Assembly (NCBI GenBank): GCA_947090235.1
Contig: CAMUNJ010000002.1
Span: 1-33,095, forward strand
Direction of reading: 5' to 3'
Length of the DNA stretch: 33,095 bases
Source: an uncultured Bacillota bacterium
GTDB taxonomy: Bacteria > Bacillota > Clostridia > Christensenellales > UBA1242
The position numbers and the translations under genes were made by a program. Shown in pieces: positions 1,461 through 33,095 of the stretch. The notes beneath the pieces are model-generated. The model was not told the origin of the DNA and ran no database searches. It worked only from the letters and a program-made list of their open reading frames with translations. The first letter of the stretch is position 1. The number at the start of each line of letters is the position of its first letter.

Positions 1461-2822
1461 ATGCCAAAGAAGGAAAGTAATAATATTGCATTTGGAATTA
1501 ATACTCCTCAAACTACTTGCAGGGTATTTGATAGCAATGAAATTTTAACTTCACCAGAAGAAATTGATTATTATAAAACTTGTATTAAAGAATTTGAGGC
1601 TTACAATAGATTAGTTGGTGAAATCAATGATAATGGTGAGTATATTATTAGTGAAAAGATAAGACGCGATCTTGCACTTCTTCCTAAGGAATTGATACAA
1701 AACGGTTACAATCTTGTTGAAGCATTTTCTCATGTTTCAGGCAAGGATCTATATTTTTACATTGAGGTTGAAGAGGCCGAAGAAAGCCAAACAGCATATT
1801 TATACTTGGTTGAAAAGGTTGATGGTTATAGAGATGTGCAAACTTTAAAAACCTTTATTGCAAAAATTACTCAGCCTAAAAGTGACGATTTCCAAGATAA
1901 AGCAAGAAGAGTTTTTAATGTGCAAGAAAGTTTCTCGACTATAGAAGAAGGCCGATTTATCAACTTAGTTATGCAAATTCAAGGTCGAATAGACTATTGG
2001 GCTGAACTTGAAGACATTATGGATTTATCTAGTCAAATTTATGTGTTACGAATTTTAACCTTGCTTGAAAGTGAGGGGGAACTTGGCAAGAAAGTTATAG
2101 AGGAATACAATCGAAGAGTTAAAATTGAAGGTTTAGATGGCTCAAATAAGAAAAAGAAATATTTATCTTTAAGAAAAATCTTGGACGACAGCATTGAAAT
2201 GTATGGTGGAAAGGAAAAGGTTTTTGTTAAAACTAAGGAAGAAGTTAAAACTATTAAAGCCGAATTTAGCACGCCAATCAAGAAGGTTGAAGAGATAAGA
2301 ACTAAGCAAATGAATAGGCCTATAGTCAAAAGGGTAGATAAAAAAGCTCCAGTCAAATCTGAAGCAAAAACATCTAAAGCTGGCGATAAATCTGCAGGCA
2401 AGGCTAAAGCGGACAAAAAGGCTGGCGGCGACAAGAAGGACAAAAAGAAAGATAAGAAAAAGGACAAAGAAGAGAAAAAAGATGCCGGCAAGAAAAAATC
2501 GTCAGGTGGAAGCAGTAAGGCTCCAAAACTTGAGGACGCCAAACCTTTCAGCAAATTTGAAGGTGAAACTCCAAAACCTGCAGTAGATCCTGCTTTACCT
2601 AAACTAGATGTTTTTAAGCCATTAACGGAGCAGCCTGATGAGGAAGATAACAATGATGACGACATGTACAATTTTCTTAAAAGAATAGTAAATAAGGGCT
2701 CGGGCGAAAGCAACAAAGGTAAAAATCCTGTTGTAATCACTAAAACTGTATACGAACGCCAAGTTTCAGCAGAGTCACCATCAAGAATAAATGGAACTGG
2801 TGAACAAGAGATAAGAATATAA
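1461..2822 (+). CDS. Hypothetical protein with a lysine-rich (histone-H1-like) low-complexity central region
   Basis: Long ORF. GAGG SD 5 nt before ATG 1461. An N-terminal ~300-aa domain I do not recognise is followed by KSAGKAKADKKAGGDKKDKKKDKKKDKEEKKDAGKKK. Confidence 0.6.
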   Translation: MPKKESNNIAFGINTPQTTCRVFDSNEILTSPEEIDYYKTCIKEFEAYNRLVGEINDNGEYIISEKIRRDLALLPKELIQNGYNLVEAFSHVSGKDLYFYIEVEEAEESQTAYLYLVEKVDGYRDVQTLKTFIAKITQPKSDDFQDKARRVFNVQESFSTIEEGRFINLVMQIQGRIDYWAELEDIMDLSSQIYVLRILTLLESEGELGKKVIEEYNRRVKIEGLDGSNKKKKYLSLRKILDDSIEMYGGKEKVFVKTKEEVKTIKAEFSTPIKKVEEIRTKQMNRPIVKRVDKKAPVKSEAKTSKAGDKSAGKAKADKKAGGDKKDKKKDKKKDKEEKKDAGKKKSSGGSSKAPKLEDAKPFSKFEGETPKPAVDPALPKLDVFKPLTEQPDEEDNNDDDMYNFLKRIVNKGSGESNKGKNPVVITKTVYERQVSAESPSRINGTGEQEIRI

Positions 2823-2851
2823 AAAAATCGCTAATTAATTAGCGATTTTTT
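2821..2851. terminator. Bidirectional terminator between convergent genes
   Basis: Palindrome aaatcgctaattaattagcgattt flanked by an A-run and a T-run, between stop 2822 (+) and stop 2850 (-). Confidence 0.75.
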
Positions 2852-3425
2852 ATTCTCCTTCTTGATTAGTTTGATTTTTTCGTTCCAGATATTTTTGATA
2901 TTGGACATTGATTTCCGCTCTCCAGTCGGTAGCAAGTGAATAATACTCATCCTGTGTCTTATATATATCTGGGCTTATATTGCCATTTTCATCAACCTTA
3001 CTTAGTAATGTTTCAAGATATTGATTAACATCCATATAAACAGGATATTCTTCATTATCGGCATATACATCAATAGCATCAGCATATTCGTCCCAAGCAG
3101 TATGGAAAGCACCTAACATACCTGCAACTTTCGCACCAAGTCTAGGCTCTTTTTCGATAGCAGGCCAAACTTTGATAAGTTTTTTGAGGTTTTTTGCAAG
3201 AGCAACTGTGTTAGCACCTTTATTATAAGCAAATTTATCTCTTGATAAAAGATCTCTAATATCTGGGTCAAAGTCTTCGCTGTCAATATTGCCATGGTTT
3301 TTAGAAATCTCATACATCGCACGAAGAGCTTGAATATTATTTGCTTTATATCTTCTTGATGCAGGGTTGATATCTGTGTGAGTGCTTACTAATTTTTCAT
3401 TATAAGGTTTGTTAAAAATTACCAT
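2850..3425 (-). CDS. Hypothetical protein (191 aa)
   Basis: ORF 2850..3458. AGAGGTG SD precedes the internal ATG at 3425 (MVIFNKPY..). The track ATG at 3458 overlaps the -10 box, so it is unlikely to be the start. No family recognised. Confidence 0.55.
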   Translation of the reverse strand: MVIFNKPYNEKLVSTHTDINPASRRYKANNIQALRAMYEISKNHGNIDSEDFDPDIRDLLSRDKFAYNKGANTVALAKNLKKLIKVWPAIEKEPRLGAKVAGMLGAFHTAWDEYADAIDVYADNEEYPVYMDVNQYLETLLSKVDENGNISPDIYKTQDEYYSLATDWRAEINVQYQKYLERKNQTNQEGE

Positions 3426-3456
3426 ATTTACACCTCTAGTTTGATTTTTCATCCAC

Positions 3457-3465
3457 ATTATAGCA
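3457..3465 (-). promoter_or_regulatory. Extended -10 element (TGcTATAAT) for the 191-aa gene
   Basis: Reverse complement of 3457-3465 reads TGCTATAAT, about 30 nt upstream of ATG 3425. Confidence 0.45.
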
Positions 3466-3539
3466 TAGTTTTTTGCATTTGTAAATACCCTTTTTGAAAA
3501 TTTTCGAATATTTTTGCCCTTTTATCGCAAATTATTTCT

Positions 3540-5075
3540 ATGTTTAAAGGTTTTGGGCGTGGTGCTATCGCTTTAATTATAAGCGGTTTTGTCTGCAAAT
3601 TCTTTGGTGCGTTGTTTAGATTGCCATTAACTTCAATTCTCGGTATTCAGGGAATTGGCGTTTTTCAAATGGTTATGTCTTTATATTCCTTGGCTTTAGT
3701 TTTTGTGACTGGTGGAGTGACAAACAGCCTTTCTCAACTAGTTTCTTCGGCACGGGCAAGAGGAGAAGGCAACAAAATTGGTGATTATTTTAGGCTTTCA
3801 ATTATTTTGACAACTTCAATTGCTCTTTTGATTGGATTGATATTTTTTATTTTGGCAGATAATATTTCGCATGTTCAGGGGGTAAGTGAAGGGGCTTTAT
3901 CTTACAAACTTTTTCTTGTTTTAATTCCTATTGGTGCTTTTATTGGTGTATTGCGAGGTATAATTCAAGGGTATGAAAATATGGTTCCAACAGCAGTTAG
4001 TCAAATTATAGAGCAGGTTTTTAAACTTGTTTTAGGTTTGGCTCTTGCCTATATATTTGCTAAACGCAGTGTGGCAAGCGGTGTTTTTGGTGGATTTTTA
4101 GGCATAACTTTAAGTGAACTTTTGGCATTTATATATCTCGGCATTGTGACGCTTAAAAGAATTAAGTTTGACACTCCTGTTCAAAAGGGGAATTTTCCTG
4201 TTTTGATAGGAGCAATTGTACCTCTATCTTTGAGTGGAGCAGTTATACCTTTTACTCATGCATTTGATAGTTTGGTTATTGTTTCTAGGCTTATGAAAGC
4301 AGGTTTTTCTAAAGAACTTTCAACCTCTCTATTTGGTCTTCAAACAGGAGTTGTGGGAGCAATTTTAAATTTTCCTTTGATTATTTCTCTTGCCCTTGCA
4401 ATGACGCTTCTTCCAAAAATTTCTTACCTTTCTTCTAAGAGAGATTATGAAGGACAGAAAGAGATAATTAAAAATTCTTTTATTGCTATGTGGGCTGTTG
4501 TGCTGCCATTGACATTTGGAATTGTTGCAATAAGCAGGGATTTATATCTAACTATTTATCCAACAACAATTGGTACATTACTTCCACAGGCAATGGAACT
4601 TACTATGCTTGGTGGCGTCAGCATAATTTTAACGGCCATCATGCAATTTTTGCTTTCAATTTTGCATGCGAGAGGATTTTTTATTTATTCCTTTATAGCT
4701 TCGGCTATTGGGGGGCTTGCTAAAATTATTTTAGTTTATACTTTGGCGGGTACAAGTCCTATCAATATTTTTGCTATTCCAATATCTAATATTGTGCTTG
4801 CGATAATAGTCTGTATAATGGTTTTGATCAAATTGGGAGGGCTTGTTAAAATTCCAGCTTTTTATATTTTGACACCTCTTCTTGCGTCAATAATTATGTT
4901 TTTATTAGTTAAACTTTTTGCAACTGTAAGTTTATCGCATTTATGGATTATGATTTTGGGTGTCTTGATTGGCGGAGTTAGTTATTTTATTTTTGCTTTT
5001 CCTGTGCTTCGAGGTTTGTTTTTAAGATTTTTCGGCAAAAACAAAAGTGAGGAGCAGGAAGGTGAAAAAAAGTGA
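3540..5075 (+). CDS. MOP-superfamily polysaccharide/lipid II flippase (MurJ / SpoVB / Wzx-like), polytopic membrane protein
   Basis: 511 aa and very hydrophobic throughout with many predicted TM segments. The N-terminus (GAIALIISGFVCKFFGALFRLPLTSILGIQGIGVFQ) is typical of this family. Confidence 0.7.
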   Translation: MFKGFGRGAIALIISGFVCKFFGALFRLPLTSILGIQGIGVFQMVMSLYSLALVFVTGGVTNSLSQLVSSARARGEGNKIGDYFRLSIILTTSIALLIGLIFFILADNISHVQGVSEGALSYKLFLVLIPIGAFIGVLRGIIQGYENMVPTAVSQIIEQVFKLVLGLALAYIFAKRSVASGVFGGFLGITLSELLAFIYLGIVTLKRIKFDTPVQKGNFPVLIGAIVPLSLSGAVIPFTHAFDSLVIVSRLMKAGFSKELSTSLFGLQTGVVGAILNFPLIISLALAMTLLPKISYLSSKRDYEGQKEIIKNSFIAMWAVVLPLTFGIVAISRDLYLTIYPTTIGTLLPQAMELTMLGGVSIILTAIMQFLLSILHARGFFIYSFIASAIGGLAKIILVYTLAGTSPINIFAIPISNIVLAIIVCIMVLIKLGGLVKIPAFYILTPLLASIIMFLLVKLFATVSLSHLWIMILGVLIGGVSYFIFAFPVLRGLFLRFFGKNKSEEQEGEKK

Positions 5076-5076
5076 G

Positions 5077-5334
5077 ATGTTTGAGATAATTTCCAAGAAA
5101 AGCGGAATAGATAAAAAAGATGTAGACAAAGTTTTTTATGAATTTAATAATTTACTTGCAGATGCTTTACGCAAAGGTGAAATTGTTCAAATAAATGGTT
5201 TTGGTAAATTTTATGTAAAAGATATGCCAAGTGTTAGGCGAGTTAATCCTATCACTCGGCGTTTTTATATGACAAAAGCACAAAAAGTGACTAAATTTAG
5301 GGCATATAAAAAATTAAAACATTGTGTTAATTAG
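5077..5334 (+). CDS. HU/IHF-family DNA-binding protein
   Basis: MFEIISKKSGIDKKDVDKVF..LLADALRKGEIVQINGFGKFYVKD..RRVNPITRR matches the HU fold pattern (GFG-x-F, R-x-x-R-N-P arm). Start taken at the ATG just after the flippase stop. Confidence 0.8.
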   Translation: MFEIISKKSGIDKKDVDKVFYEFNNLLADALRKGEIVQINGFGKFYVKDMPSVRRVNPITRRFYMTKAQKVTKFRAYKKLKHCVN

Positions 5335-5369
5335 TTTGTTTTTATTTGGAAATTTGCTAAAATAGTTGT

Positions 5370-6290
5370 GTGTTAAAAAATCAATTGAATTTACAGGATT
5401 TTATTGTTCTTGCTCCTATGGCAGGCGTGAGTGATGTTGGATTCCGTGCTATTTCTTCGCAATTTGGAGCGGATGCAACTTGGAGCGAAATGCTTTCTTG
5501 CAGAGCAATGATGCATAATCCTAAAAAAACAGAATATATGACAATTTGTGCTAAGCAAGAAAAGATAAAGGTGGCACAAATTTTTGGGCATGAGCCAGAA
5601 ATAATGGCGTCTTCACTTTCGCTTGGACTACTAAAAGATTATGATATTTTTGATATAAATATGGGTTGTCCTGCTCCTAAAATTGTAAAAAATGGAGAGG
5701 GAAGTGCTTTGATGAAAAATCTTCCTCTCGCAAGCAAGATTATTTCTGCTTGTGCAAAGGCGACAGATAAACCTTTAGGAGTTAAATTTAGACTCGGTTT
5801 TGATAAAGATATTTCTGTGGAGTTTGGCAAAATGTGTGAAGAAAGTGGGGCAGATTTTATAACCCTCCACGCTAGAACAACAGCCATGGGATATAGTGGC
5901 AGAGCAGATTATGAGGCTATCGCAAAATTGAAGGCAAGCGTAAACATTCCAGTTATTGGCAATGGTGATGTTGTTGACAAGGCAAGTTTTGATAATATGA
6001 AAGCGACAGGTGTAGACGCTGTTATGATCGGTCGAGGAGCATGTGGACGACCTTGGATTTTTGACGAACTTAAAAACAAACCTCTTCCAGAAGATAGGTT
6101 TGAGGTTGTTAGGCGTCATGTTGAGATTTTGCGTGAGCATTATGAAGAAAAATGGTTAACGATGTATTTACGCAAACATTTTTTATGGTATGTGTATGGA
6201 ATTGAGGGGGCAGCCGAAAAAAGGCTTCAACTTGCTACAAGCGAAAGCATAGACAAAAGTTTAGAGATTTTGAAAGAAATATTAATATAA
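5370..6290 (+). CDS. dusB: tRNA-dihydrouridine synthase
   Basis: LAPMAGVSDVGFR, DINMGCPAPKIV, HARTTAMGYSGRADY and MIGRGACGRPWIF are Dus-family motifs. GTG start is tentative. Confidence 0.85.
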   Translation: MLKNQLNLQDFIVLAPMAGVSDVGFRAISSQFGADATWSEMLSCRAMMHNPKKTEYMTICAKQEKIKVAQIFGHEPEIMASSLSLGLLKDYDIFDINMGCPAPKIVKNGEGSALMKNLPLASKIISACAKATDKPLGVKFRLGFDKDISVEFGKMCEESGADFITLHARTTAMGYSGRADYEAIAKLKASVNIPVIGNGDVVDKASFDNMKATGVDAVMIGRGACGRPWIFDELKNKPLPEDRFEVVRRHVEILREHYEEKWLTMYLRKHFLWYVYGIEGAAEKRLQLATSESIDKSLEILKEILI

Positions 6291-6375
6291 AATAAATTTA
6301 AACAATATCATTATCTATAAAAATATTTTGAGAAAATCTTATTTTGTAGTAAACTTAATATAAATTGGAGGAGTT

Positions 6376-14330: not shown

Positions 14331-14358
14331 AAAAAACACGGAAATCTCCGTGTTTTTT
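14331..14358. terminator. Bidirectional terminator between argS and the convergent 310-aa gene
   Basis: aaaaaacacgga-aatc-tccgtgtttttt: 7-bp stem, 4-nt loop, A-run and T-run on either side. Confidence 0.8.
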
Positions 14359-15289
14359 ATTGTTGTTGACTATTTGATGCTTCAATTGTATCATATTTTG
14401 CAAGCATAATTTCTTTTAAGTGATTAAATTCATCTTCATCTAAGTTTGTAAACGTATATGAACAATCTCTGCTACAATTCGACACAAAATAGTTGGTCAA
14501 ACAATTATTTTCGTCAATTGTAAATGAAAAGGTTTGGCGTTGAAGGTTTGGAGATCCTCGATCTATTGGGCACGTGGTTGAAATAGTTAAAGTTTCATTT
14601 TCGTTTGAGAGTGAGATTGTTTCAGTGTCGTCCACTACAAAATCGGGCAGGAAGTTGTAAATGTTGGTCTTATAACTCATAGTATTTGTATAACGACCAT
14701 ATAACTCACCTTCACTTGTTATTGTTTGAGTGTCAAATCTTATTGGAGTTCCAGTTTGAGCTATAAACGCAGTTGCAGGCTTGCTTGCTGCTTGATAAAA
14801 TTTTTTGTCTGAAATGCTTTCATAAACGCTATAATAGTCTTTATTTCCTTCCTTGGCTTTTATTTCTGTTTTAGTCCATGAATAGCCATCTCCATATTTT
14901 TCAACACCTGAAGACCCAAGTTTTAAAAAGTTTGAAGATTCAAGAGTGTTGTCGAATGCGATATACAGAATTTTATTAACGGCAGCTTGTTGAACATCAA
15001 ACAATCTTTCTTCTACATGTTCTTTTGCACGAGAGTTGTATGGCTTTATTAATTTATTAACCTTTGTTTTGATTTGGTCAGCAGCTTCTACAAATTCAAA
15101 AATGTCATCAATTTCAGTTATAGTTTCTTTTTTATCAATTAATTCTTGGATAATCGCATAGGATTGTTCGTATGCTTTTGCTTCTTGTTTTTTGATTGCA
15201 GAATTAATGCCTACAAAAATAAAAATTCCGCCAATTATTGCTGTAGACAAGCCTAAACATAATCCTGTCGTTATTTTGTCTTTATCCAT
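14357..15289 (-). CDS. N-terminally membrane-anchored extracytoplasmic protein, unknown function
   Basis: AGGAGG SD. N-terminal TM GLCLGLSTAIIGGIFIFVGI followed by a hydrophilic Ser/Thr/Asn-rich domain with several Cys near the C-terminus. No family recognised. Confidence 0.7.
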   Translation of the reverse strand: MDKDKITTGLCLGLSTAIIGGIFIFVGINSAIKKQEAKAYEQSYAIIQELIDKKETITEIDDIFEFVEAADQIKTKVNKLIKPYNSRAKEHVEERLFDVQQAAVNKILYIAFDNTLESSNFLKLGSSGVEKYGDGYSWTKTEIKAKEGNKDYYSVYESISDKKFYQAASKPATAFIAQTGTPIRFDTQTITSEGELYGRYTNTMSYKTNIYNFLPDFVVDDTETISLSNENETLTISTTCPIDRGSPNLQRQTFSFTIDENNCLTNYFVSNCSRDCSYTFTNLDEDEFNHLKEIMLAKYDTIEASNSQQQ

Positions 15290-15333: not shown

Positions 15334-15357
15334 ATTATACTCGGGGGGGGGTGTCAA
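15334..15357 (-). promoter_or_regulatory. Promoter with consensus -35 and -10 hexamers separated by a homopolymer-dominated 12-nt spacer
   Basis: Reverse complement reads TTGACA-CCCCCCCCCGAG-TATAAT. It is followed ~40 nt later by AGGAGG and the ATG of the 310-aa gene. Confidence 0.55.
15343..15351. repeat. G9 (C9 on the coding strand) homopolymer inside the promoter spacer
   Basis: Nine consecutive G read directly from the sequence. By eye this is the longest G/C run in the AT-rich window. Confidence 0.95.
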
Positions 15358-19390: not shown

Positions 19391-20077
19391 ATGAAAAAGT
19401 TAGGTAAAAGATATCAAAAGGCTGTGGAAGTTGCTTCAAATCAAACTTCTTTTGATGTTGCTTCTGCAATGCAAACTCTTTTAGATATGCCAAAGGCTAA
19501 GTTTGACGAAACAGTTGAACTTCATGTTCGCCTTGGTGTTGATGGTAGACAAGCAGACCAACAAGTTCGTGGTGTTTGTGTACTTCCTCACGGAACTGGT
19601 AAAACTCTTAAAGTTTTGGTTATCGCTAAAGGTGATAAGGCTGATGATGCTGCTAAAGCAGGTGCAGACTTTGTTGGAGCAGAAGAAATTGTTTCTAAAA
19701 TTCAAGGTGGATGGGTAGATTTTGATGTTTGTATCACTACTCCAGATATGATGGGACTTGTAGGTCGCGTTGCTAGAGTTTTAGGACCAAAAGGCTTAAT
19801 GCCAAACCCTAAGAGTGGTACAGTAACAATGGATGTTGCTAAAGCCATCACAGAAGCAAAAGCAGGTAAGGTGGAATATAGACTTGATAAGAACAATATT
19901 GTACATGTTATCTTAGGAAAAGTAAGTTTTGGTAAAGATAAACTTGTAGATAACTTCAATACAGTAGTTGAAGCACTTGTTAAGGCTAAACCAGCAGCCG
20001 CAAAAGGAACTTATCTTAAATCAGTTACAGTTGCAACAACAATGGGACCTGGTGTTAAAGTTCAAGTTTCTATGTAA
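19391..20077 (+). CDS. rplA: 50S ribosomal protein L1
   Basis: [32 protein letters not shown] and [15 protein letters not shown] motifs. Confidence 0.95.
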
Positions 20078-20091
20078 TAACATGATAATTT

Positions 20092-20120
20092 AAAAACACG
20101 ATAAAAATATCGTGTTTTTT
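20092..20120 (+). terminator. Strong rplKA terminator
   Basis: aacacgata-aaaa-tatcgtgtt followed by TTTTTT. Confidence 0.8.
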
Positions 20121-20236
20121 GTTTGCTATATTTGATATAAATTAAATGAATTTGTTTTTATAGTAAAATTTGCTTGCTTTAAGATTCAAAAAGTTGTAAA
20201 ATTATTTATATAAATTTAATAAAGGAAATAAAACAT

Positions 20237-20326
20237 ATGAAAACAAAATTGTATAGTATGTTAATTATCCTTGTTTCCCTTCTGCTGGGTGCAGGAAGTG
20301 CATTCTTGGCGGGGGGGGATTTTTAA
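20237..20326 (+). CDS. Signal-peptide-encoding 5' exon-like ORF of the GLUG surface protein, out of frame with its body
   Basis: AAGGA SD and ATG 20237. MKTKLYSMLIILVSLLLGAGSAFLAGGDF* is a classic n-h-c signal peptide that runs through the G8 tract and stops at 20324-20326. Confidence 0.6.
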   Translation: MKTKLYSMLIILVSLLLGAGSAFLAGGDF

Positions 20327-23015
20327 CTCTCTAAAAAATGATTTGTCAACAAATGCGGCATGGCCTAATCCAACAAATAGCGGAAATTGGATAGATAATT
20401 GTAGCACTTCTATTTGGGCAGGAGAAGGTACTTTTAGAGATCCTTATTTGATCACCTCTGAAAAAGAATTAGCCGCAGTAGCATATAGAGTAAATCAAGG
20501 CCAATATTCTGATTGTGTTTTTAGATTGACAAAAAACCTGGATATGAAAGATTATTATTGGACACCGATTGGAACAATAACAAATACATTTCAAGGTAGG
20601 TTTTATGGTAAAAATTATACAATTTCTAATATTTATATAAACTCCAACGCAAATCTTGGTTTATTTGGTGTGATAGAAGAGGCCATTATTGGTGATGTGG
20701 TTGTTGAAAATTCATATATTCGAGGAACTACTTTTGTAGGCGGAATTATAGGAAATGCTTCTTTTGCGTGTTTAATTTCTAATTGCCATTTTAAAGGTGG
20801 AGAAATCAGTGTTTCATCAGATTTTGCTGGTGGAATAGTTGGACGTATTACTGCATTTAAAGATAGTAATATTGCAGGGTGTGTAATAGAACAATGTTCA
20901 AATAGTGGGAAATTGACGCGAAATGGCGATGGCAGATATGTCGGAGGAATAGTTGGATATTTTATTGGCTCAACAAATTTAGATGACGATTCTTTTATAA
21001 TGAATTGTTATAATAGGGGACTTATAGAAGGATATAATTATGTAGGAGGGATAGTTGGCTATATTACTAATTTGTTTTTGGTAGCCAATTGTTATAACAC
21101 AGGAAACATTATGGCAGCCACAATTTGTGGTGGAATTGGAGGAAGTTCAGCAAATTTAAACGCTAATTCAAAGATAGTAAATTGTTATAATGTCGGAAAT
21201 ATTTTAGGAAATTCGTCTGCAAGGGCAATTATAGGTAGTAGTACTTCTCTTTTATTAAGCAAGTGCTATTTTGGAGGAAACTGCGATCTTACATCTCCAG
21301 GTGGAAGTTCCGCTAGTACTATAGGAAAAGTTACTATGGAGCAAGTAAAAGTCATTACATGGTATAGAACGTCTTCAAATTGGGATAGAGAATATCCTTG
21401 GGATTTTGTTAATGTTTGGGAGATATATAATGGGCATAATGATAACTTTCCAATCTTCATAATTGTTAGTACTTTGACAATAAATCCAAATGGAGGGAGT
21501 TGTCAAGGAGATTCTTCTGTACAATCAATCACAAAAGCAAATGATTATGTTTTAAATTTGCAAAACCCTATTCGAGAAGGGTTTAATTTTGCTGGTTGGA
21601 AGTTGGAGTATGGTGGTAATTTAGTTTCTGGAATGCCTGCCAAAGGAGGCTTTACTACTAATTCTAGAGTTGATAATGATGGAAGTGTTTACATGAATTT
21701 CCATGGTGAATATGATAAACCTTCTTCAAGCCAATGGCTGACCTGTATGTTTGATAAATATACTTTTGTTGATGGTCATGAATATCAAATAAGTTATGGT
21801 GTTCGAATAAATACCTTGCAAGGTGGTGTTGGTATAGATTTTCGTCACTCAAGGCTAGAAAACGATTGGGCTACACCTTGTGGTAATACTTTTTATGGAA
21901 AAACAAATGGTTGGAAGTATTATGAAATGTCGCAAGTATTATATACAAGTTGCGATTTAGGAGAGACTAATCCCTTGTTTGCAATATGGACAGGAGATTT
22001 AAAAAATTCAACAGAAAATAAAATCATCTATGATTTTGATTTAAAAAATATTGTTATTATGGATGTGACAAATAATACTATAGCATGGACTAGTCAAAAA
22101 TTTACTTTTGGGCAAAACGATGCCACTCTAACTGCTCTTTGGGTGGAAAAAACATGGGATCAATTTGCAGCAGACTCATATGCAGGCGGAAGTGGAACTC
22201 AAACAGATCCATACACAATCGCAACTGCTGAGCAATTAGCAAAACTTTCTAAGGATAGTATGAAAAACTCATTTGAAAATGTTTATTTCAAGCAAATAGA
22301 CAATATTGATTTAAATGCTCATTTTTGGAGCGGAATAGGTGTAACTTCAGATAGACCATTCAAAGGAAATTATGATGGTGGGATGCATTTTATTGCTAAC
22401 CTTAGAATGTATCAAACGGGTGCTGTAGGATTGTTTAATGTGACTGAATCTGCCATAATGTCAAAGATACATCTAATTGATAGTGAAATAAAAACTATAA
22501 GAGGTGATGCTGGAGGTATTGTAGGAATAAATGGTGGTACTAGTGGGGCTAATCCATCTATTGTACAAGATTGCATTGTAGAAAGATCAACAATAATTTG
22601 TGAGGATAAAACTTTTGGTTCAATAGGAGGAATTTCTGGTGCATGGGGGCAGGTTAAAAATTGTATAGTTAAAGATAGTACAATAGATGGCGACTGGGCT
22701 GGAGGAATCTCAGGATATAACCCTATTATGACAAAGGATTGCTCTGCATTAAATGTGACAATAATTGGAAGATCAGAAAAGCAAATTGTTTCTAGAGTAA
22801 AAAATAATATTCAATCTTGTTATGGATATGGAAGTATAAATGGAGCATCTGTTAAAGTTTTGTATGGGGATTCTTCTGTTTGGGGGAATTGGAGTTATAC
22901 TGCAAATATAAATAATGGTTATCCACTTCAAAACAACCTTTTCTGGGTAGTAGGGCAAAGCGGAAGCGATAATGTTTATAACTATCTCAAAAATCTTGGA
23001 TTTAGTGATGGGTAA
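20271..23015 (+). CDS. Large secreted/surface protein with two GLUG-motif (beta-helix-like) repeat modules and a Listeria-Bacteroides (InlB B-type) repeat; frameshifted from its signal peptide
   Basis: Repeated ..NCYN.G.I.G...VGGIVGY.. units. Two module heads: GTFRDPYLITSEKELAAVA and GTQTDPYTIATAEQLAKLS. LTINPNGGS..PIREGFNFAGWKL. The track start is a TTG with no signal peptide. Confidence 0.7.
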   Translation: MFPFCWVQEVHSWRGGIFNSLKNDLSTNAAWPNPTNSGNWIDNCSTSIWAGEGTFRDPYLITSEKELAAVAYRVNQGQYSDCVFRLTKNLDMKDYYWTPIGTITNTFQGRFYGKNYTISNIYINSNANLGLFGVIEEAIIGDVVVENSYIRGTTFVGGIIGNASFACLISNCHFKGGEISVSSDFAGGIVGRITAFKDSNIAGCVIEQCSNSGKLTRNGDGRYVGGIVGYFIGSTNLDDDSFIMNCYNRGLIEGYNYVGGIVGYITNLFLVANCYNTGNIMAATICGGIGGSSANLNANSKIVNCYNVGNILGNSSARAIIGSSTSLLLSKCYFGGNCDLTSPGGSSASTIGKVTMEQVKVITWYRTSSNWDREYPWDFVNVWEIYNGHNDNFPIFIIVSTLTINPNGGSCQGDSSVQSITKANDYVLNLQNPIREGFNFAGWKLEYGGNLVSGMPAKGGFTTNSRVDNDGSVYMNFHGEYDKPSSSQWLTCMFDKYTFVDGHEYQISYGVRINTLQGGVGIDFRHSRLENDWATPCGNTFYGKTNGWKYYEMSQVLYTSCDLGETNPLFAIWTGDLKNSTENKIIYDFDLKNIVIMDVTNNTIAWTSQKFTFGQNDATLTALWVEKTWDQFAADSYAGGSGTQTDPYTIATAEQLAKLSKDSMKNSFENVYFKQIDNIDLNAHFWSGIGVTSDRPFKGNYDGGMHFIANLRMYQTGAVGLFNVTESAIMSKIHLIDSEIKTIRGDAGGIVGINGGTSGANPSIVQDCIVERSTIICEDKTFGSIGGISGAWGQVKNCIVKDSTIDGDWAGGISGYNPIMTKDCSALNVTIIGRSEKQIVSRVKNNIQSCYGYGSINGASVKVLYGDSSVWGNWSYTANINNGYPLQNNLFWVVGQSGSDNVYNYLKNLGFSDG
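20311..20318 (+). repeat. G8 homopolymer at the signal-peptide/mature-protein junction
   Basis: Eight consecutive G read directly from the sequence. G7 or G10 would join frame 20237 to frame 20271. Confidence 0.95.
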
Positions 23016-23020
23016 AAATT

Positions 23021-23052
23021 AAAAAAAGTTTGGATTTGTAGCCAAACTTTTT
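23021..23052 (+). terminator. Terminator of the GLUG protein gene
   Basis: aagtttgg-atttgtag-ccaaactt followed by a T-run. Confidence 0.75.
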
Positions 23053-30423: not shown

Positions 30424-33095
30424 TTATTTAACTTTCAAGCGTTTTCTAAGTTTGATTGTTATAAAGATTACAACTCCTACTACAACAACGCTTATTACAA
30501 TTGCAATTATTGCCCAAACATTTAAAGGCTCTGTTCTAGTCACTTTATATGAGAAGAGAAGGTTACCACTCATTGTGTAAACTTGAACATAGTGTGTACC
30601 AACAATAGTTATATCTACTGTGATGTTTTCTTGGCCTTGAGCAAGATTTTCTGCATTGACAATAATTGGAGTTTGTCCTGGTATTTTTATAATACAATCG
30701 CCAACTGTTTCATACATATTTTTAAGATTATATGTTACTTTGATAGGATTTGTGGTTGAGCCACCTTCCTCTAAGTCTACAGCGATAGGAGGAGAGGCAA
30801 GATTAATCCTAAATGCAAAGGTGAAGGAAGTTGGGCTTGCGTCAATATTTTTATAAGTTTGTTCACCAGTTTCAATAGTGATAACATATCTTCCGCTTCC
30901 TGTTTTTTCGTCGAAATAAGAAATTTGAAGATTTGTGAAGAAATATGTTTCATTATCAAAAGTCACTTTACTATCGTCAATTGTGGAAATAAACTTTTGT
31001 GTAACATCACGGCCATCTTTAAAAATAGATTTGACATAGTAATTAGCATAAGTGCTAAACTCAAATGTATATCTACTTTCGTTTGCATTTATAATTGAGA
31101 AGACAAAGTTTTCTCTTCTAACTTCCTCTTGATTTACACTCAAAGCCTCAAAACTAACAGAATAATAACCATTTTCATTAAATATATAGTTATTTACTCC
31201 AGCAGTTGTATAGTTGGTGTATTCTTGTCCATCTTTCATCACTTTTATGATAGGGTAGCCAGAAGCAAAATAATCTGTAGGGTTGGTTAGAGATAATTTT
31301 ACGCTTCCATTATAGATGGCTCTATTGATTGGCTCTGAAATTACCTCTTCGTTTGAGATAGGATCTGTGTAAGTAATTGTGAAAGGTACACTATTTAGGA
31401 AGGTTATATTTATAAATTCATATCTTCCAAATAAATGCTTGTTTGGATTTTCGCAACTATCTTGGAAAGTTAGTCTATAAGTACCTGCACGAGTCAAATA
31501 AATATAGTTTGTATTTCCATCTTTATATATAGTCGTGTTTAGTTGTTCAAGTTTGCCATTAAAGTTCTTTTCTAGAACAACTTGAATGTCATTTTCTTTT
31601 ATGCCATAATAATTGTTCCAAGTTATTTTAAGTTTATCAAATCCTATTTCGTCAGATAGAGCAACGATAGGTCTTGGATTTGCTGGGTCTGCAGATTGAA
31701 GTAGGTCTACACTAGATCCGGTTGCATTTTCATATGAAAGTCGCGATAAGATTTGAGAACTTTCTCCAATATAAACAACCGCAAATTTAGCATCTTTGCT
31801 GATTTTGCTATTGTAGGTGTAAACTTCAACTTTGACTCCTGCTCTTGAAGAATCTTTATCTTCCACTAAGCGAGATGAGAAGGTTGTGTTGAGTTCTTTA
31901 TTAGGCTCAATAACAACTCTTGCATCTTTATCATCATAATTTACGCTTAAAACATAAACTGTGCTGATTTCTTCTCCTGTGTCTGCTGTTGTGTATTTAA
32001 AGTCTGCTCTAGGCTCAACAGGAAGACCATCTACATGGAAATAGTATGAGATAGAAGAAGAGTTTAAAATGTTTATCATAAATAGTTTACATTCAGTTTC
32101 AAAAACATTTTCGTGATCGTATTTAGCAAGAACAAAATAACTTCCTGCACCTGAAATTGTGTGTCCACTAGCAAATTCATTTATATTTGTCCAGTTTTCT
32201 CTATCAGTTGAGATATAAACACTATAAGGATATTGTGTTAAATCGTCTTTTATTGTCATGTTTTGTCCATCATTAAATCCGATTGTCACATTGCTAGAGA
32301 AGGTTGTGATTGAAGTTGCTGGCGATGAGAATTGTTTTCCTCTAAATTTATATGTTAGAGTAGGGACATTTTCTATTGTTCCGTTTCCGTTATTGGAATT
32401 GATTGTTTGATTGTTTTTATCCAAGAACCAAATATTGTTTTGATTATTTTCTCCGCCTTTTTTGTCGCTAAGAACAGGTAAGCGATTGTAGATTCGAAGA
32501 TTTATTATCTTGATTGCTTTGTTATTAGCACTGCCTTCGTCATAATTTTCGCTCTCATAAACTTCGATAACATAAACTTTGTCGTAGTTTAATTGTCCTA
32601 AGTTTGATATTGTTATTGTACGGATATTGTTTGTGTTAGGCTTGAGGGAAGAATTGATATTATCTTGTCCTTGTCCACCAATAACTTTTACAACTTTTGC
32701 AACATATAGAAGGCTATTGTATTGATATGTCAAATTGCCAGAAGAAAGATATGTTTTTGATGAGTCGCCTTCAATAGTTTCGTATATAGTGTTGTTTCCT
32801 ACAACTTCTTGGCAGGTTTCTTCGTTGATAAGTTGAACAATAGTGATTGTATTGTTAAAGTTATCCTCAATTTCATACTTAAATTTTGTGCTTGAATTAT
32901 TTTGAACAGTTATGGTGATTTCAAGATAACTTCCAACATAGTTGAATGATAGAAAATCTCTGCTAAATGCAAGCCAATCTTGAGGATTGCCAGATTCAAC
33001 AATTGCTTCTTTCAATGTTTCGTCATTCCATCCCCCATTTTCATATCTAGAAATAGTTATCTTTCTAGGAGTTACATAAGCGTGAGTTGTGCTTT
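30424..33095 (-). CDS. Very large C-terminally membrane-anchored surface protein, 5'-partial (continues beyond the window)
   Basis: The frame stays open from 33015 to the window edge, so the track TTG start is not real. Asn/Thr/Ser/Tyr-rich beta-type sequence. C-terminal TM VWAIIAIVISVVVVGVVIFITI followed by KLRKRLKVK. No family recognised. Confidence 0.7.
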   Translation of the reverse strand, partial: STTHAYVTPRKITISRYENGGWNDETLKEAIVESGNPQDWLAFSRDFLSFNYVGSYLEITITVQNNSSTKFKYEIEDNFNNTITIVQLINEETCQEVVGNNTIYETIEGDSSKTYLSSGNLTYQYNSLLYVAKVVKVIGGQGQDNINSSLKPNTNNIRTITISNLGQLNYDKVYVIEVYESENYDEGSANNKAIKIINLRIYNRLPVLSDKKGGENNQNNIWFLDKNNQTINSNNGNGTIENVPTLTYKFRGKQFSSPATSITTFSSNVTIGFNDGQNMTIKDDLTQYPYSVYISTDRENWTNINEFASGHTISGAGSYFVLAKYDHENVFETECKLFMINILNSSSISYYFHVDGLPVEPRADFKYTTADTGEEISTVYVLSVNYDDKDARVVIEPNKELNTTFSSRLVEDKDSSRAGVKVEVYTYNSKISKDAKFAVVYIGESSQILSRLSYENATGSSVDLLQSADPANPRPIVALSDEIGFDKLKITWNNYYGIKENDIQVVLEKNFNGKLEQLNTTIYKDGNTNYIYLTRAGTYRLTFQDSCENPNKHLFGRYEFINITFLNSVPFTITYTDPISNEEVISEPINRAIYNGSVKLSLTNPTDYFASGYPIIKVMKDGQEYTNYTTAGVNNYIFNENGYYSVSFEALSVNQEEVRRENFVFSIINANESRYTFEFSTYANYYVKSIFKDGRDVTQKFISTIDDSKVTFDNETYFFTNLQISYFDEKTGSGRYVITIETGEQTYKNIDASPTSFTFAFRINLASPPIAVDLEEGGSTTNPIKVTYNLKNMYETVGDCIIKIPGQTPIIVNAENLAQGQENITVDITIVGTHYVQVYTMSGNLLFSYKVTRTEPLNVWAIIAIVISVVVVGVVIFITIKLRKRLKVK

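What the first reader, a model, noticed from the sequence alone, without database searches (positions are those of the whole stretch)
20237..20330. G8 tract uncouples the signal peptide from the body of a ~925-aa GLUG surface protein (OFF-phase contingency locus)
Seen: ATG 20237 with an upstream AAGGA encodes a textbook signal peptide (MKTKLYSMLIILVSLLLGAGSAFLAGG). It reads through eight consecutive G (20311-20318) and hits TAA at 20324-20326. The 914-codon body (frame of 20271) overlaps it and is open across the same tract. Removing one G (G7) or adding two (G10) gives ..AFLAGGIFNSLKNDLSTNAAW.., one continuous secreted protein. The in-frame start available in the present state is a TTG with no SD and no export signal. 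Established: poly-G/C tracts near the 5' end of surface-protein genes switch expression ON/OFF by slipped-strand mispairing in Neisseria, Haemophilus, Campylobacter, Helicobacter and mycoplasmas. Inference: the assembled sequence captures the OFF phase of a phase-variable adhesin-like gene. A G8 run is conspicuous in such AT-rich DNA.
Basis: partly seen in the sequence, partly recalled or inferred. Interest (0 to 1): 0.75.

Follow-up and report, generated by a model that had tools for sequence, protein, structure and literature searches.

The report
Poly-G on/off switch in secreted protein gene
A run of eight G's sits just after the export signal of a large secreted beta-helix (GLUG) protein gene and puts it out of frame here. 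The same gene in other samples has nine G's (also off) or ten G's (on), so this is an ordinary slipped-strand on/off switch, found in an unnamed low-GC gut-type bacterium.

Summary
ATG 20237 opens a signal-peptide ORF that runs through G8 (20311-20318) and stops at TAA 20324-20326. The 914-codon body ORF (20271-23015) is open across the tract in the +1 frame. G7 or G10 fuses the two into a 925- or 926-aa protein.

Three other public assemblies carry the same locus at 96-98% identity. One has G9 (JGI 3300006217, off, in the third frame). Two have G10 (SRR20820550 and SRR20820548, on, with a called 926-aa protein that includes the signal peptide). The tract is the only indel inside a gene in those alignments. 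A/T runs of similar length are almost all stable.

The body is under purifying selection (dN/dS 0.20-0.32) and carries no stop despite 63-153 substitutions. It is therefore neither a dead gene nor a general homopolymer artefact.

The protein has two GLUG beta-helix modules, like the beta-helix of streptococcal IgA1 proteases, but no protease motif and no sortase anchor. Distant GLUG homologues show the same signal peptide, poly-G, body layout, and others carry G9-G10 tracts in their promoter spacers.

Verdict: interpretation supported. It is a new member of a known kind. Read-level heterogeneity remains untested.

The parts
20092..20119 (+). Intrinsic-terminator-like hairpin plus T run that closes the upstream rplK-rplA unit. 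It marks the 5' boundary of the GLUG gene unit.
   Evidence: 12-pair stem then T-rich tail. rplA ends at 20077.
20174..20202 (+). Candidate promoter read by eye: TTGCTT, 17 nt, TG-n-TAAAAT (extended -10). Inferred only.
   Evidence: Sequence. The consensus scan found no site that met its criteria. The region is almost identical in L001 and L002.
20222..20226 (+). Shine-Dalgarno-like AAGGA, 10 nt before ATG 20237.
20237..20326 (+). Leader ORF. It encodes the signal peptide (MKTK, hydrophobic core, GSA|F), reads through the tract, and ends at TAA in the G8 state (29 codons).
   Evidence: The leader is conserved in L001, L002 and L026, with one conservative change (L5V) and one synonymous change (GCA to GCT).
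20311..20318 (+). G8 homopolymeric tract, the switch. G7, G10 or G13 is ON. G8, G9, G11 or G12 is OFF.
   Evidence: The orthologous tract is G9 in L002/L025/L029 and G10 in L001 and L026.
20319..23015 (+). Body of the GLUG protein, 898 codons after the tract plus the stop. The frame is open from 20265 (first start codon TTG 20271). It has two GLUG beta-helix modules (about residues 20-380 and 610-850 of the body) and a poorly modelled middle region with a Listeria-Bacteroides repeat.
   Evidence: Pfam Glug 8.4e-10 and Flg_new 5.6e-05 (the latter below its cut-off). AF2 pLDDT 78. Foldseek top hits are 3n6z and the IgA1-protease beta-helix. dN/dS 0.20-0.32.
23023..23052 (+). Terminator-like hairpin 8 nt after the stop codon. 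The gene looks monocistronic.

Best explanation
This is a contingency locus: a secreted GLUG beta-helix protein gene switched by the length of a poly-G tract. The tract sits about five codons after the predicted signal-peptidase site. Slipped-strand mispairing during replication adds or removes G's. With G7, G10 or G13, the ribosome that starts at the SD-preceded ATG 20237 reads signal peptide, Gly-Gly(-Gly) and the 898-codon body as one exported protein (ON). With G8 (this window) or G9, it stops 2-5 codons after the tract. The body then has no ribosome-binding site, only weak TTG/GTG starts and no export signal (OFF). The window records an OFF allele. Shown here: the tract, the frames, the length polymorphism G8/G9/G10 among near-identical loci, the intact and selected body, and the beta-helix GLUG fold. 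Inferred: that the changes are frequent and reversible within a population, that OFF means no protein, and that the protein acts at the cell surface.
For: (1) Anatomy. (2) Allelic series: the protein's own 90% cluster holds a 926-aa form with the signal peptide (P0122) and an 890-aa truncated call (P0121). Their DNA shows G10 (L001) and G9 (L002). A fourth assembly, L026, has G10. (3) Specificity: in the 20.6-kb window/L002 alignment (98.2% identity) the real indels are this tract, the second G tract and one intergenic T9. Of 93 A/T runs of 6 or more, 1 has an indel, against 2 of 2 G runs of 8 or more. This tract is the only indel inside a gene. (4) The tract changes faster than its surroundings. 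L001 and L002 have identical 74-nt leaders and one substitution in the first 100 body codons, yet carry G10 and G9. (5) Not a pseudogene: dN/dS is 0.20-0.32, and third-position changes predominate. Placing the observed 63-153 substitutions at random would give 3.6-9.6 stops, and the probability of none is 0.02 down to below 0.0004. (6) The tract is written in the rarest codons. (7) The design recurs. The distant homologue in L032 has a signal-peptide ORF, then G9, then a stop, with the body open (off). Its relative P0094 reads straight through (..TSGGGNSQSD..). L033 has an in-frame G9 after the signal peptide (on). P0009 (on) pairs with P0032, which is called from MGGGRTD. (8) The lineage also uses G tracts in promoters of GLUG paralogues (L023, L030, L006). 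(9) 92 of 119 homologues begin with a signal-peptide-like segment, so export is the family norm.
Against: No reads were available, so heterogeneity within one sample and reversibility are not shown. Only four assemblies exist, and the two G10 assemblies have neighbouring run accessions, probably one study. The ON state was never seen in this strain's own background. The signal peptide was judged by charge and hydropathy, not by a dedicated predictor. The consensus scan found no promoter. The cellular role of the protein is unknown, and it has no cell-wall anchor motif.
Confidence: 0.8

Rival explanations
1. Homopolymer miscall. The true tract has one in-frame length (for example G10) in all strains, and G8 and G9 are sequencing or assembly errors.
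For: Long G runs are error-prone on several platforms. Related metagenome assemblies have low coverage (cov 5.9 and 7.3 in the contig names). No reads could be inspected.
Against: Two independent assemblies would each need an error, of different size, at the same site. Meanwhile 92 of 93 A/T runs of 6 or more in 20.6 kb agree, and no other gene is frameshifted. The same off-frame layout appears in an unrelated homologue from another project (L032).
Confidence: 0.08
2. Plain pseudogene. The gene was inactivated by a frameshift in this strain and is decaying. The tract is incidental.
For: Two of three distinct alleles are out of frame. The gene is accessory: it is absent after rplA in relatives with 85-90% identical ArgS and is replaced by another paralogue in L030.
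Against: All alleles keep 898 uninterrupted codons. dN/dS is 0.2-0.3, and the probability of no stop under neutrality is 0.02 or less. The leader ORF and its SD are also conserved. The off alleles differ from the on allele only in tract length at the junction.
Confidence: 0.04
3. Recoding rather than DNA switching. The G8 allele is expressed through transcriptional slippage on the G run or a +1 ribosomal frameshift, so the gene is constitutively, if weakly, on.
For: RNA polymerase can slip on homopolymers (established for A/T runs). The leader stop lies only two codons after the tract.
Against: Programmed recoding sites are conserved in length, whereas all three reading-frame states occur here (G8, G9, G10). 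One is directly in frame and needs no recoding. No stimulatory structure or known RNA family is present. Slippage could add some leakiness, but it does not replace the DNA polymorphism.
Confidence: 0.05

Closest known systems
Neisseria gonorrhoeae / N. meningitidis pilC
   Same: On/off switching by frameshifts in a homo-guanine tract within the signal-peptide-coding region of a surface adhesin gene (review PMC5354566, read). The tract position and its logical effect are the same: the export signal is uncoupled from the body.
   Different: pilC belongs to a Gram-negative betaproteobacterium, encodes a type IV pilus tip protein unrelated to GLUG, and its switching has been shown by experiment. 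Here the tract lies just after the predicted cleavage site, the host looks like a low-GC Bacillota-type organism, and nothing has been shown by experiment.
Campylobacter jejuni poly-G/C contingency genes
   Same: An AT-rich genome in which G/C runs of 8 or more are rare, conspicuous, and concentrated in surface-structure genes both inside and between genes (review PMC8355987, listed; details from general knowledge).
   Different: Most Campylobacter targets are glycan-modifying enzymes and flagellar or capsule genes. Its lack of mismatch repair is part of the mechanism, and that could not be assessed here.
Neisseria opa genes (CTCTT repeats in the signal-peptide-coding region)
   Same: A repeat inside the leader-coding region sets the frame of an outer-surface protein (general knowledge).
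   Different: The repeat is a pentanucleotide, not a homopolymer, and the protein family is unrelated.
Promoter-spacer homopolymer switches (N. meningitidis porA/opc; nspA poly-A, PMC6389960; Treponema pallidum tpr poly-G)
   Same: They match what was seen in passing. G9-G10 or C9 tracts lie between TTGAC(A/G) and TATA(A/C)T upstream of GLUG paralogues and of the window gene 14357-15289.
   Different: The finding itself is a translational (coding) switch, not a promoter one.
Streptococcus pneumoniae / Gemella IgA1 protease (ZmpA family) and BACOVA_03286 (PDB 3n6z)
   Same: They share the GLUG-motif right-handed beta-helix. Foldseek gives 3n6z at E 6.6e-07 with target TM 0.68, and 7uvk and 6xja at probability 1.00.
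   Different: The window protein has no M26 protease domain, no HExxH and no LPxTG. The similarity is confined to the beta-helix module, so no protease function is implied.

Membership tests
Simple-sequence-repeat (homopolymer) translational phase variation / contingency locus | A homopolymeric G/C tract of hypermutable length (about 7 or more) inside the 5' coding region | tested here: met
   G8 at 20311-20318, codons 25-28 of the leader ORF.
Simple-sequence-repeat (homopolymer) translational phase variation / contingency locus | Tract length differs among otherwise near-identical strains, and the difference is confined to the tract | tested here: met
   G8, G9, G10 and G10 in four assemblies at 96-98% identity. 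It is the only indel inside a gene.
Simple-sequence-repeat (homopolymer) translational phase variation / contingency locus | Length changes toggle between a full-length and a truncated product | tested here: met
   In-silico G7 and G10 give 925 and 926 aa; G8 and G9 give 29 and 32 aa. A natural G10 allele is called as a 926-aa protein.
Simple-sequence-repeat (homopolymer) translational phase variation / contingency locus | The rest of the gene is intact and under selection in off alleles | tested here: met
   dN/dS 0.20-0.32. No stops against 3.6-9.6 expected.
Simple-sequence-repeat (homopolymer) translational phase variation / contingency locus | High-frequency, reversible length heterogeneity within one population | not testable with these tools
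   No read data or cultures are available. Only assembly consensus sequences were compared.
Simple-sequence-repeat (homopolymer) translational phase variation / contingency locus | Protein present in ON subpopulations and absent in OFF ones | not testable with these tools
   Needs immunoblot or proteomics.
GLUG motif proteins (Pfam PF07581) | Match to the Glug model above the gathering score | tested here: met
   38.8 bits against a cut-off of 20.5, E 8.4e-10. Seven GG[IV]xG repeats are present.
GLUG motif proteins (Pfam PF07581) | Right-handed beta-helix fold as in solved GLUG-containing structures | tested here: met
   In the AF2 model most 10-residue blocks of both modules have mean pLDDT above 90. 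The top PDB matches are 3n6z and the IgA1-protease beta-helix.
IgA1 protease / M26 zinc metalloprotease | Peptidase_M26 domain with an HExxH zinc site | tested here: not met
   No M26 Pfam hit and no HExxH.
Sortase-anchored Gram-positive surface protein | C-terminal LPxTG-type motif followed by a hydrophobic segment and a charged tail | tested here: not met
   No LPxTG, LPxTA or NPxTG, and no C-terminal hydrophobic segment.

The most novel reading that the evidence does not exclude
The switch may not be a one-off. It could be one instance of a lineage-spanning system in which GLUG beta-helix surface proteins of uncultured, mostly low-GC gut bacteria are placed under poly-G/C control as a rule. 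Control would act either in the promoter spacer (TTGAC[AG]-c-G9-atttgc-TATACT in L023 and L030; G10 in L006; C12-C20 in L015 and L016) or at the junction of signal peptide and mature protein (window, L032, L033, P0009/P0032). The slot downstream of rplA would serve as an exchange site for alternative switchable paralogues. That would describe a homopolymer-based 'phasome' in gut commensals, where phase variation has so far been described mainly through invertible promoters.
Probability: 0.45. Interest if true: 0.55.

Novelty: new member of a known kind. Interest (0 to 1): 0.4.

Why it matters
The mechanism is textbook, so the value lies in where it occurs. It is a well-supported example of homopolymer phase variation found purely from metagenome assemblies. 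The host is an unnamed organism whose uL1 is most like that of Bacillus and Enterococcus, and the protein family (GLUG) has no assigned function. There are three practical consequences. First, gene callers truncate these genes: the products were called as 908 and 890 aa without their export signal, so surface-protein repertoires of such MAGs are under-annotated. Second, tract length at this site could serve as a population-level marker of selection on a surface protein in gut samples. Third, the recurrence of tracts at GLUG genes suggests these proteins are exposed to phage, host or immune selection, which gives a lead on their function.

Tried and rejected
- **Metagenome DNA scan.** An exact pattern scan of metagenome contigs with both tract flanks (GTGCATTCTTGGC-N{4,16}-ATTTTTAACTCTCT) found nothing. 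That collection evidently lacks the JGI contig that does carry the locus.
- **Protein-based scans.** Scans of genome contigs and metagenome contigs returned only distant paralogues at about 30% identity, with no further orthologues and no named species.
- **N-terminal protein search.** A third protein search with only the N-terminal 169 aa, meant to catch fragmentary alleles, returned no scored hit.
- **Exact look-ups.** Look-ups of the window's own 908-aa product and of the downstream MFS protein found no contigs.
- **Naming the organism.** ArgS homologues carry no source names, and sample accessions appear in no paper. Only a coarse placement was possible: uL1 scores highest against the chains of 3j3v and 7nhk, which I recall as Bacillus subtilis and Enterococcus faecalis ribosomes (the tool output gives no organism).
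- **Literature.** No paper in the searched library mentions GLUG proteins together with phase variation or homopolymeric tracts.
- **Other sequence features.** No Rfam family lies near the locus, and there is no other tandem repeat of note.
- **GGG enrichment.** A crude test for 'GGG' in the first 80 residues of homologues gave 13 of 119. That is about the roughly 10 expected from the GGG rate in the rest of these Gly-rich proteins, so I make no statistical claim.
- **Protease or sortase-anchored protein.** I considered both and rejected them.
Full report
**1. The observation**

- AAGGA lies at 20222-20226 and ATG at 20237.
- A 29-codon ORF, MKTKLYSMLIILVSLLLGAGSAFLAGGDF, reads through eight G's at 20311-20318 and ends at TAA 20324-20326.
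- The mechanical ORF list gives that ORF and a 914-codon ORF at 20271-23015, in the +1 frame, which overlaps it and is open across the tract.
- Editing the tract in silico gives a continuous 925-aa protein for G7 and 926 aa for G10. G9 gives a 32-aa dead end.
- The repaired protein has one hydrophobic segment, at residues ~3-30. With its MKTK head and a GSA|F site it looks like a Sec signal peptide. I had no dedicated predictor.

The tract is not a chance feature.
- The window is 33% GC, with no C run of 6 or more and only three G runs of 6 or more.
- GGGGGGGG is expected 0.17 times in shuffles and matches three times, in two tracts.
- GCG-GGG-GGG uses the rarest Ala codon (6.5%) and the rarest Gly codon (10.9%). 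Only 1 of 57 Gly-Gly pairs in the window's genes is spelled GGGGGG.

**2. Context**

The gene follows rpmG-secE-nusG-(164-aa ORF)-rplK-rplA.
- A terminator-like hairpin lies at 20092-20119 after rplA, and another at 23023-23052 just after the GLUG stop codon. The gene therefore looks monocistronic.
- The consensus scan found no promoter. By eye there is TTGCTT-17-TGtTAAAAT at 20174-20202, which is inference only.
- The rest of the window is housekeeping: L9, PGK, TIM, DnaX, YbaB, RecR, ArgS, CysS, RecD2-like and an MFS transporter.
Its uL1 scores highest against the chains of 3j3v and 7nhk (283 and 274 bits), which I recall as Bacillus subtilis and Enterococcus faecalis ribosomes. The chains I take to be Thermus, Mycobacterium and E. 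coli score about 245 or less (the tool output gives no organism). I therefore treat it as a low-GC Bacillota-like bacterium.

**3. The protein**

- Pfam gives Glug (E 8.4e-10, above the cut-off) and a sub-threshold Listeria-Bacteroides repeat.
- An AlphaFold2 model built on 54 homologues (mean pLDDT 78) has two confident beta-helix modules, at residues ~20-380 and ~610-850, around a poorly modelled middle.
- Foldseek's best PDB matches are 3n6z (a Bacteroides ovatus 'putative IgA1 protease' beta-helix, E 6.6e-07, target TM 0.68) and the beta-helix of the S. pneumoniae and Gemella IgA1 proteases.
- There is no M26 domain, no HExxH and no sortase motif. It is a secreted or N-terminally anchored beta-helix protein of unknown activity. 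'Adhesin' remains a guess.
- 92 of 119 homologues begin with a signal-peptide-like segment.

**4. The decisive comparison**

The window's own product was called as 908 aa from a GTG with no export signal. It sits in a 90% cluster with two other sequences: an 890-aa call and a 926-aa call that begins MKTKVYSMLIILVSLLLGAGSAFLAGGGIFNSLKN. I fetched the DNA of both, and an exact look-up of RplA found a fourth assembly.

| Assembly | Locus | Tract | State |
|---|---|---|---|
| this window | window | G8 | off |
| JGI 3300006217 | L002 (same contig also fetched as L025 and L029) | G9 | off, third frame |
| Logan SRR20820550 | L001 | G10 | on, 926 aa |
| Logan SRR20820548 | L026 | G10 | on; gene called from the signal-peptide ATG |

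All three frame states therefore exist in nature at this site, and one of them is the intact secreted protein.

**5. Is it a general homopolymer artefact?**

- The window and L002 align over 20.6 kb at 98.2% identity.
- Besides two compensating alignment gaps in argS, the only indels are this tract, the window's other G tract and one intergenic T9.
- Of 93 A/T runs of 6 or more, one differs by an indel. Both G runs of 8 or more differ.
- In the 5-kb L001 alignment the other true indels are short runs in intergenic DNA: two A7 runs and one T5 run.
- No other gene in the window is frameshifted.

A platform with systematic homopolymer error would not give this pattern.

**6. Is it a dead gene?**

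- All three alleles keep 898 uninterrupted codons after the tract.
- Pairwise dN/dS is 0.20, 0.30 and 0.32, and third-position changes predominate.
- Placing the observed 63, 128 and 153 substitutions at random would give 3.6, 7.9 and 9.6 stop codons. The probability of none is 0.023, 0.0004 and below 0.0002.
- The leader is conserved too, with one conservative and one synonymous change.
- The tract changes faster than its surroundings. L001 and L002 share an identical 74-nt leader and differ by one substitution in the first 100 body codons, yet have G10 and G9.
- Divergence is patchy. Codons ~101-300 of the first beta-helix carry most of the L001-specific changes, and dN is about equal to dS in codons 201-300. 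That fits recombination or diversifying pressure on an exposed module.

**7. The design recurs**

- *Coding tracts in distant homologues (~33% identity).* L032 has MKRLFLLILSFIFLGGAVSSSAFY..TQTSGGGNRKAIF*, which reads through a G9 while the body stays open in another frame. Its relative P0094 reads straight through (..TSGGGNSQSDILEND..). L033 has an in-frame G9 (..DNSGGGKSS..) after its signal peptide. P0009 (..NFVGGGRTD..) has a sibling, P0032, called from MGGGRTD.
- *Close relatives.* In relatives with 85-90% identical ArgS, the gene after rplA is absent or different.
- *Promoter tracts.* In GCA_949001935.1, which has an identical L11, the slot after rplA holds another GLUG paralogue (E 3e-37). 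Its promoter reads TTGACG-c-G9-atttgc-TATACT. The same module precedes a 997-aa GLUG gene in L023. L006, L015 and L016 show G10 or C12-C20 tracts upstream of GLUG ORFs.

I did not find this association described in the searched literature.

**8. Mechanism and comparison**

The best explanation is classic slipped-strand phase variation of translation.
- The closest described case is Neisseria pilC, which is switched by frameshifts in a homo-guanine tract in its signal-peptide region (PMC5354566).
- Campylobacter's G tracts in an AT-rich genome are the closest genomic analogy.
- Rivals I considered were sequencing error, a plain pseudogene and recoding by slippage. Each is disfavoured by the data above, but error cannot be fully excluded without reads.
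- Untested: heterogeneity and reversibility within one population, loss of the protein in the off state, the status of mismatch repair, and the protein's function.

**9. Verdict**

It is a new member of a known kind. Interest is moderate. The mechanism will not surprise a specialist. The cross-sample allelic series is clean, however, and the recurrent poly-G control of GLUG proteins in uncultured gut bacteria is worth a systematic survey.

Noticed in passing
window 15334-15357 (tract 15343-15351), upstream of minus-strand gene 14357-15289: There is a second long tract. G9 on the + strand is C9 on the coding strand, exactly between TTGACA and TATAAT upstream of a 310-aa N-terminally anchored protein with no Pfam match. 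The spacer is only 12 nt here. It is 13 nt in L002 (TTGACA-atca-C6-gag-TATAAT) and 15 nt in the 90%-ArgS relative L021 (aat-C9-gac). This is probably a promoter-spacer phase or level switch. All three observed spacers are shorter than the usual 16-18 nt, which I cannot explain.
   Followed up: partly
L030 4271-4298 (NCBI GCA_949001935.1) and L023 12112-12139: A shared promoter module, TTGAC[AG]-c-G9-atttgc-TATACT (16-nt spacer), sits upstream of two different GLUG-family genes. In L030 the gene occupies the same slot after rplA as the window's gene, but it is a different paralogue (30% identity). The site downstream of rplA therefore looks like an exchange point for switchable surface-protein genes.
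   Followed up: partly
L032 1432-1500 (tract 1460-1468); L033 1603-1611: Distant GLUG homologues from other metagenomes have the same layout of signal peptide, then G9, then body. One is out of frame (L032, product called without its signal peptide). One is in frame (L033).
   Followed up: partly
L006 5378-5407; L015 43-59 and 4241-4252; L016 9278-9297: GLUG loci from JGI metagenome contigs (L006, L015, L016) carry G10 in a TTGACA-18-TATAAT spacer, or C12, C17 and C20 runs directly before GTACAATAGG. In L006 and L015 these lie upstream of large GLUG ORFs. In L015 two tandem paralogues each have their own tract. In L016 the C20 run lies after a GLUG ORF, near the contig end.
   Followed up: no
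window 20619-21218 (body codons ~101-300): Divergence of the GLUG gene is mosaic. L001 differs strongly from the window and L002 only in the first beta-helix module (dS 0.40 in codons 101-200; dN about equal to dS in codons 201-300). Codons 501-600 are identical. This suggests recombination or diversifying selection on that module.
   Followed up: partly
window 20289 (GTG) and L002 10001 (TTG): Public gene calls for the off alleles start at arbitrary internal GTG or TTG codons (908 and 890 aa) and drop the signal peptide. This is an annotation artefact, and it will hide exported proteins in MAG catalogues.
   Followed up: yes
window 30424-33015 (minus strand, runs off the window end): This is part of a very large ORF, called as 1810 aa in the L002 contig and cut by the locus end, with no Pfam match. 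I did not examine it further.
   Followed up: no
L010 3063-3080: A C8-T-C9 compound tract lies inside a minus-strand reading frame that also contains a single in-frame stop (ORFs 2439-3713 and 3714-6329 share a frame). It is unrelated to the GLUG match on that contig.
   Followed up: no
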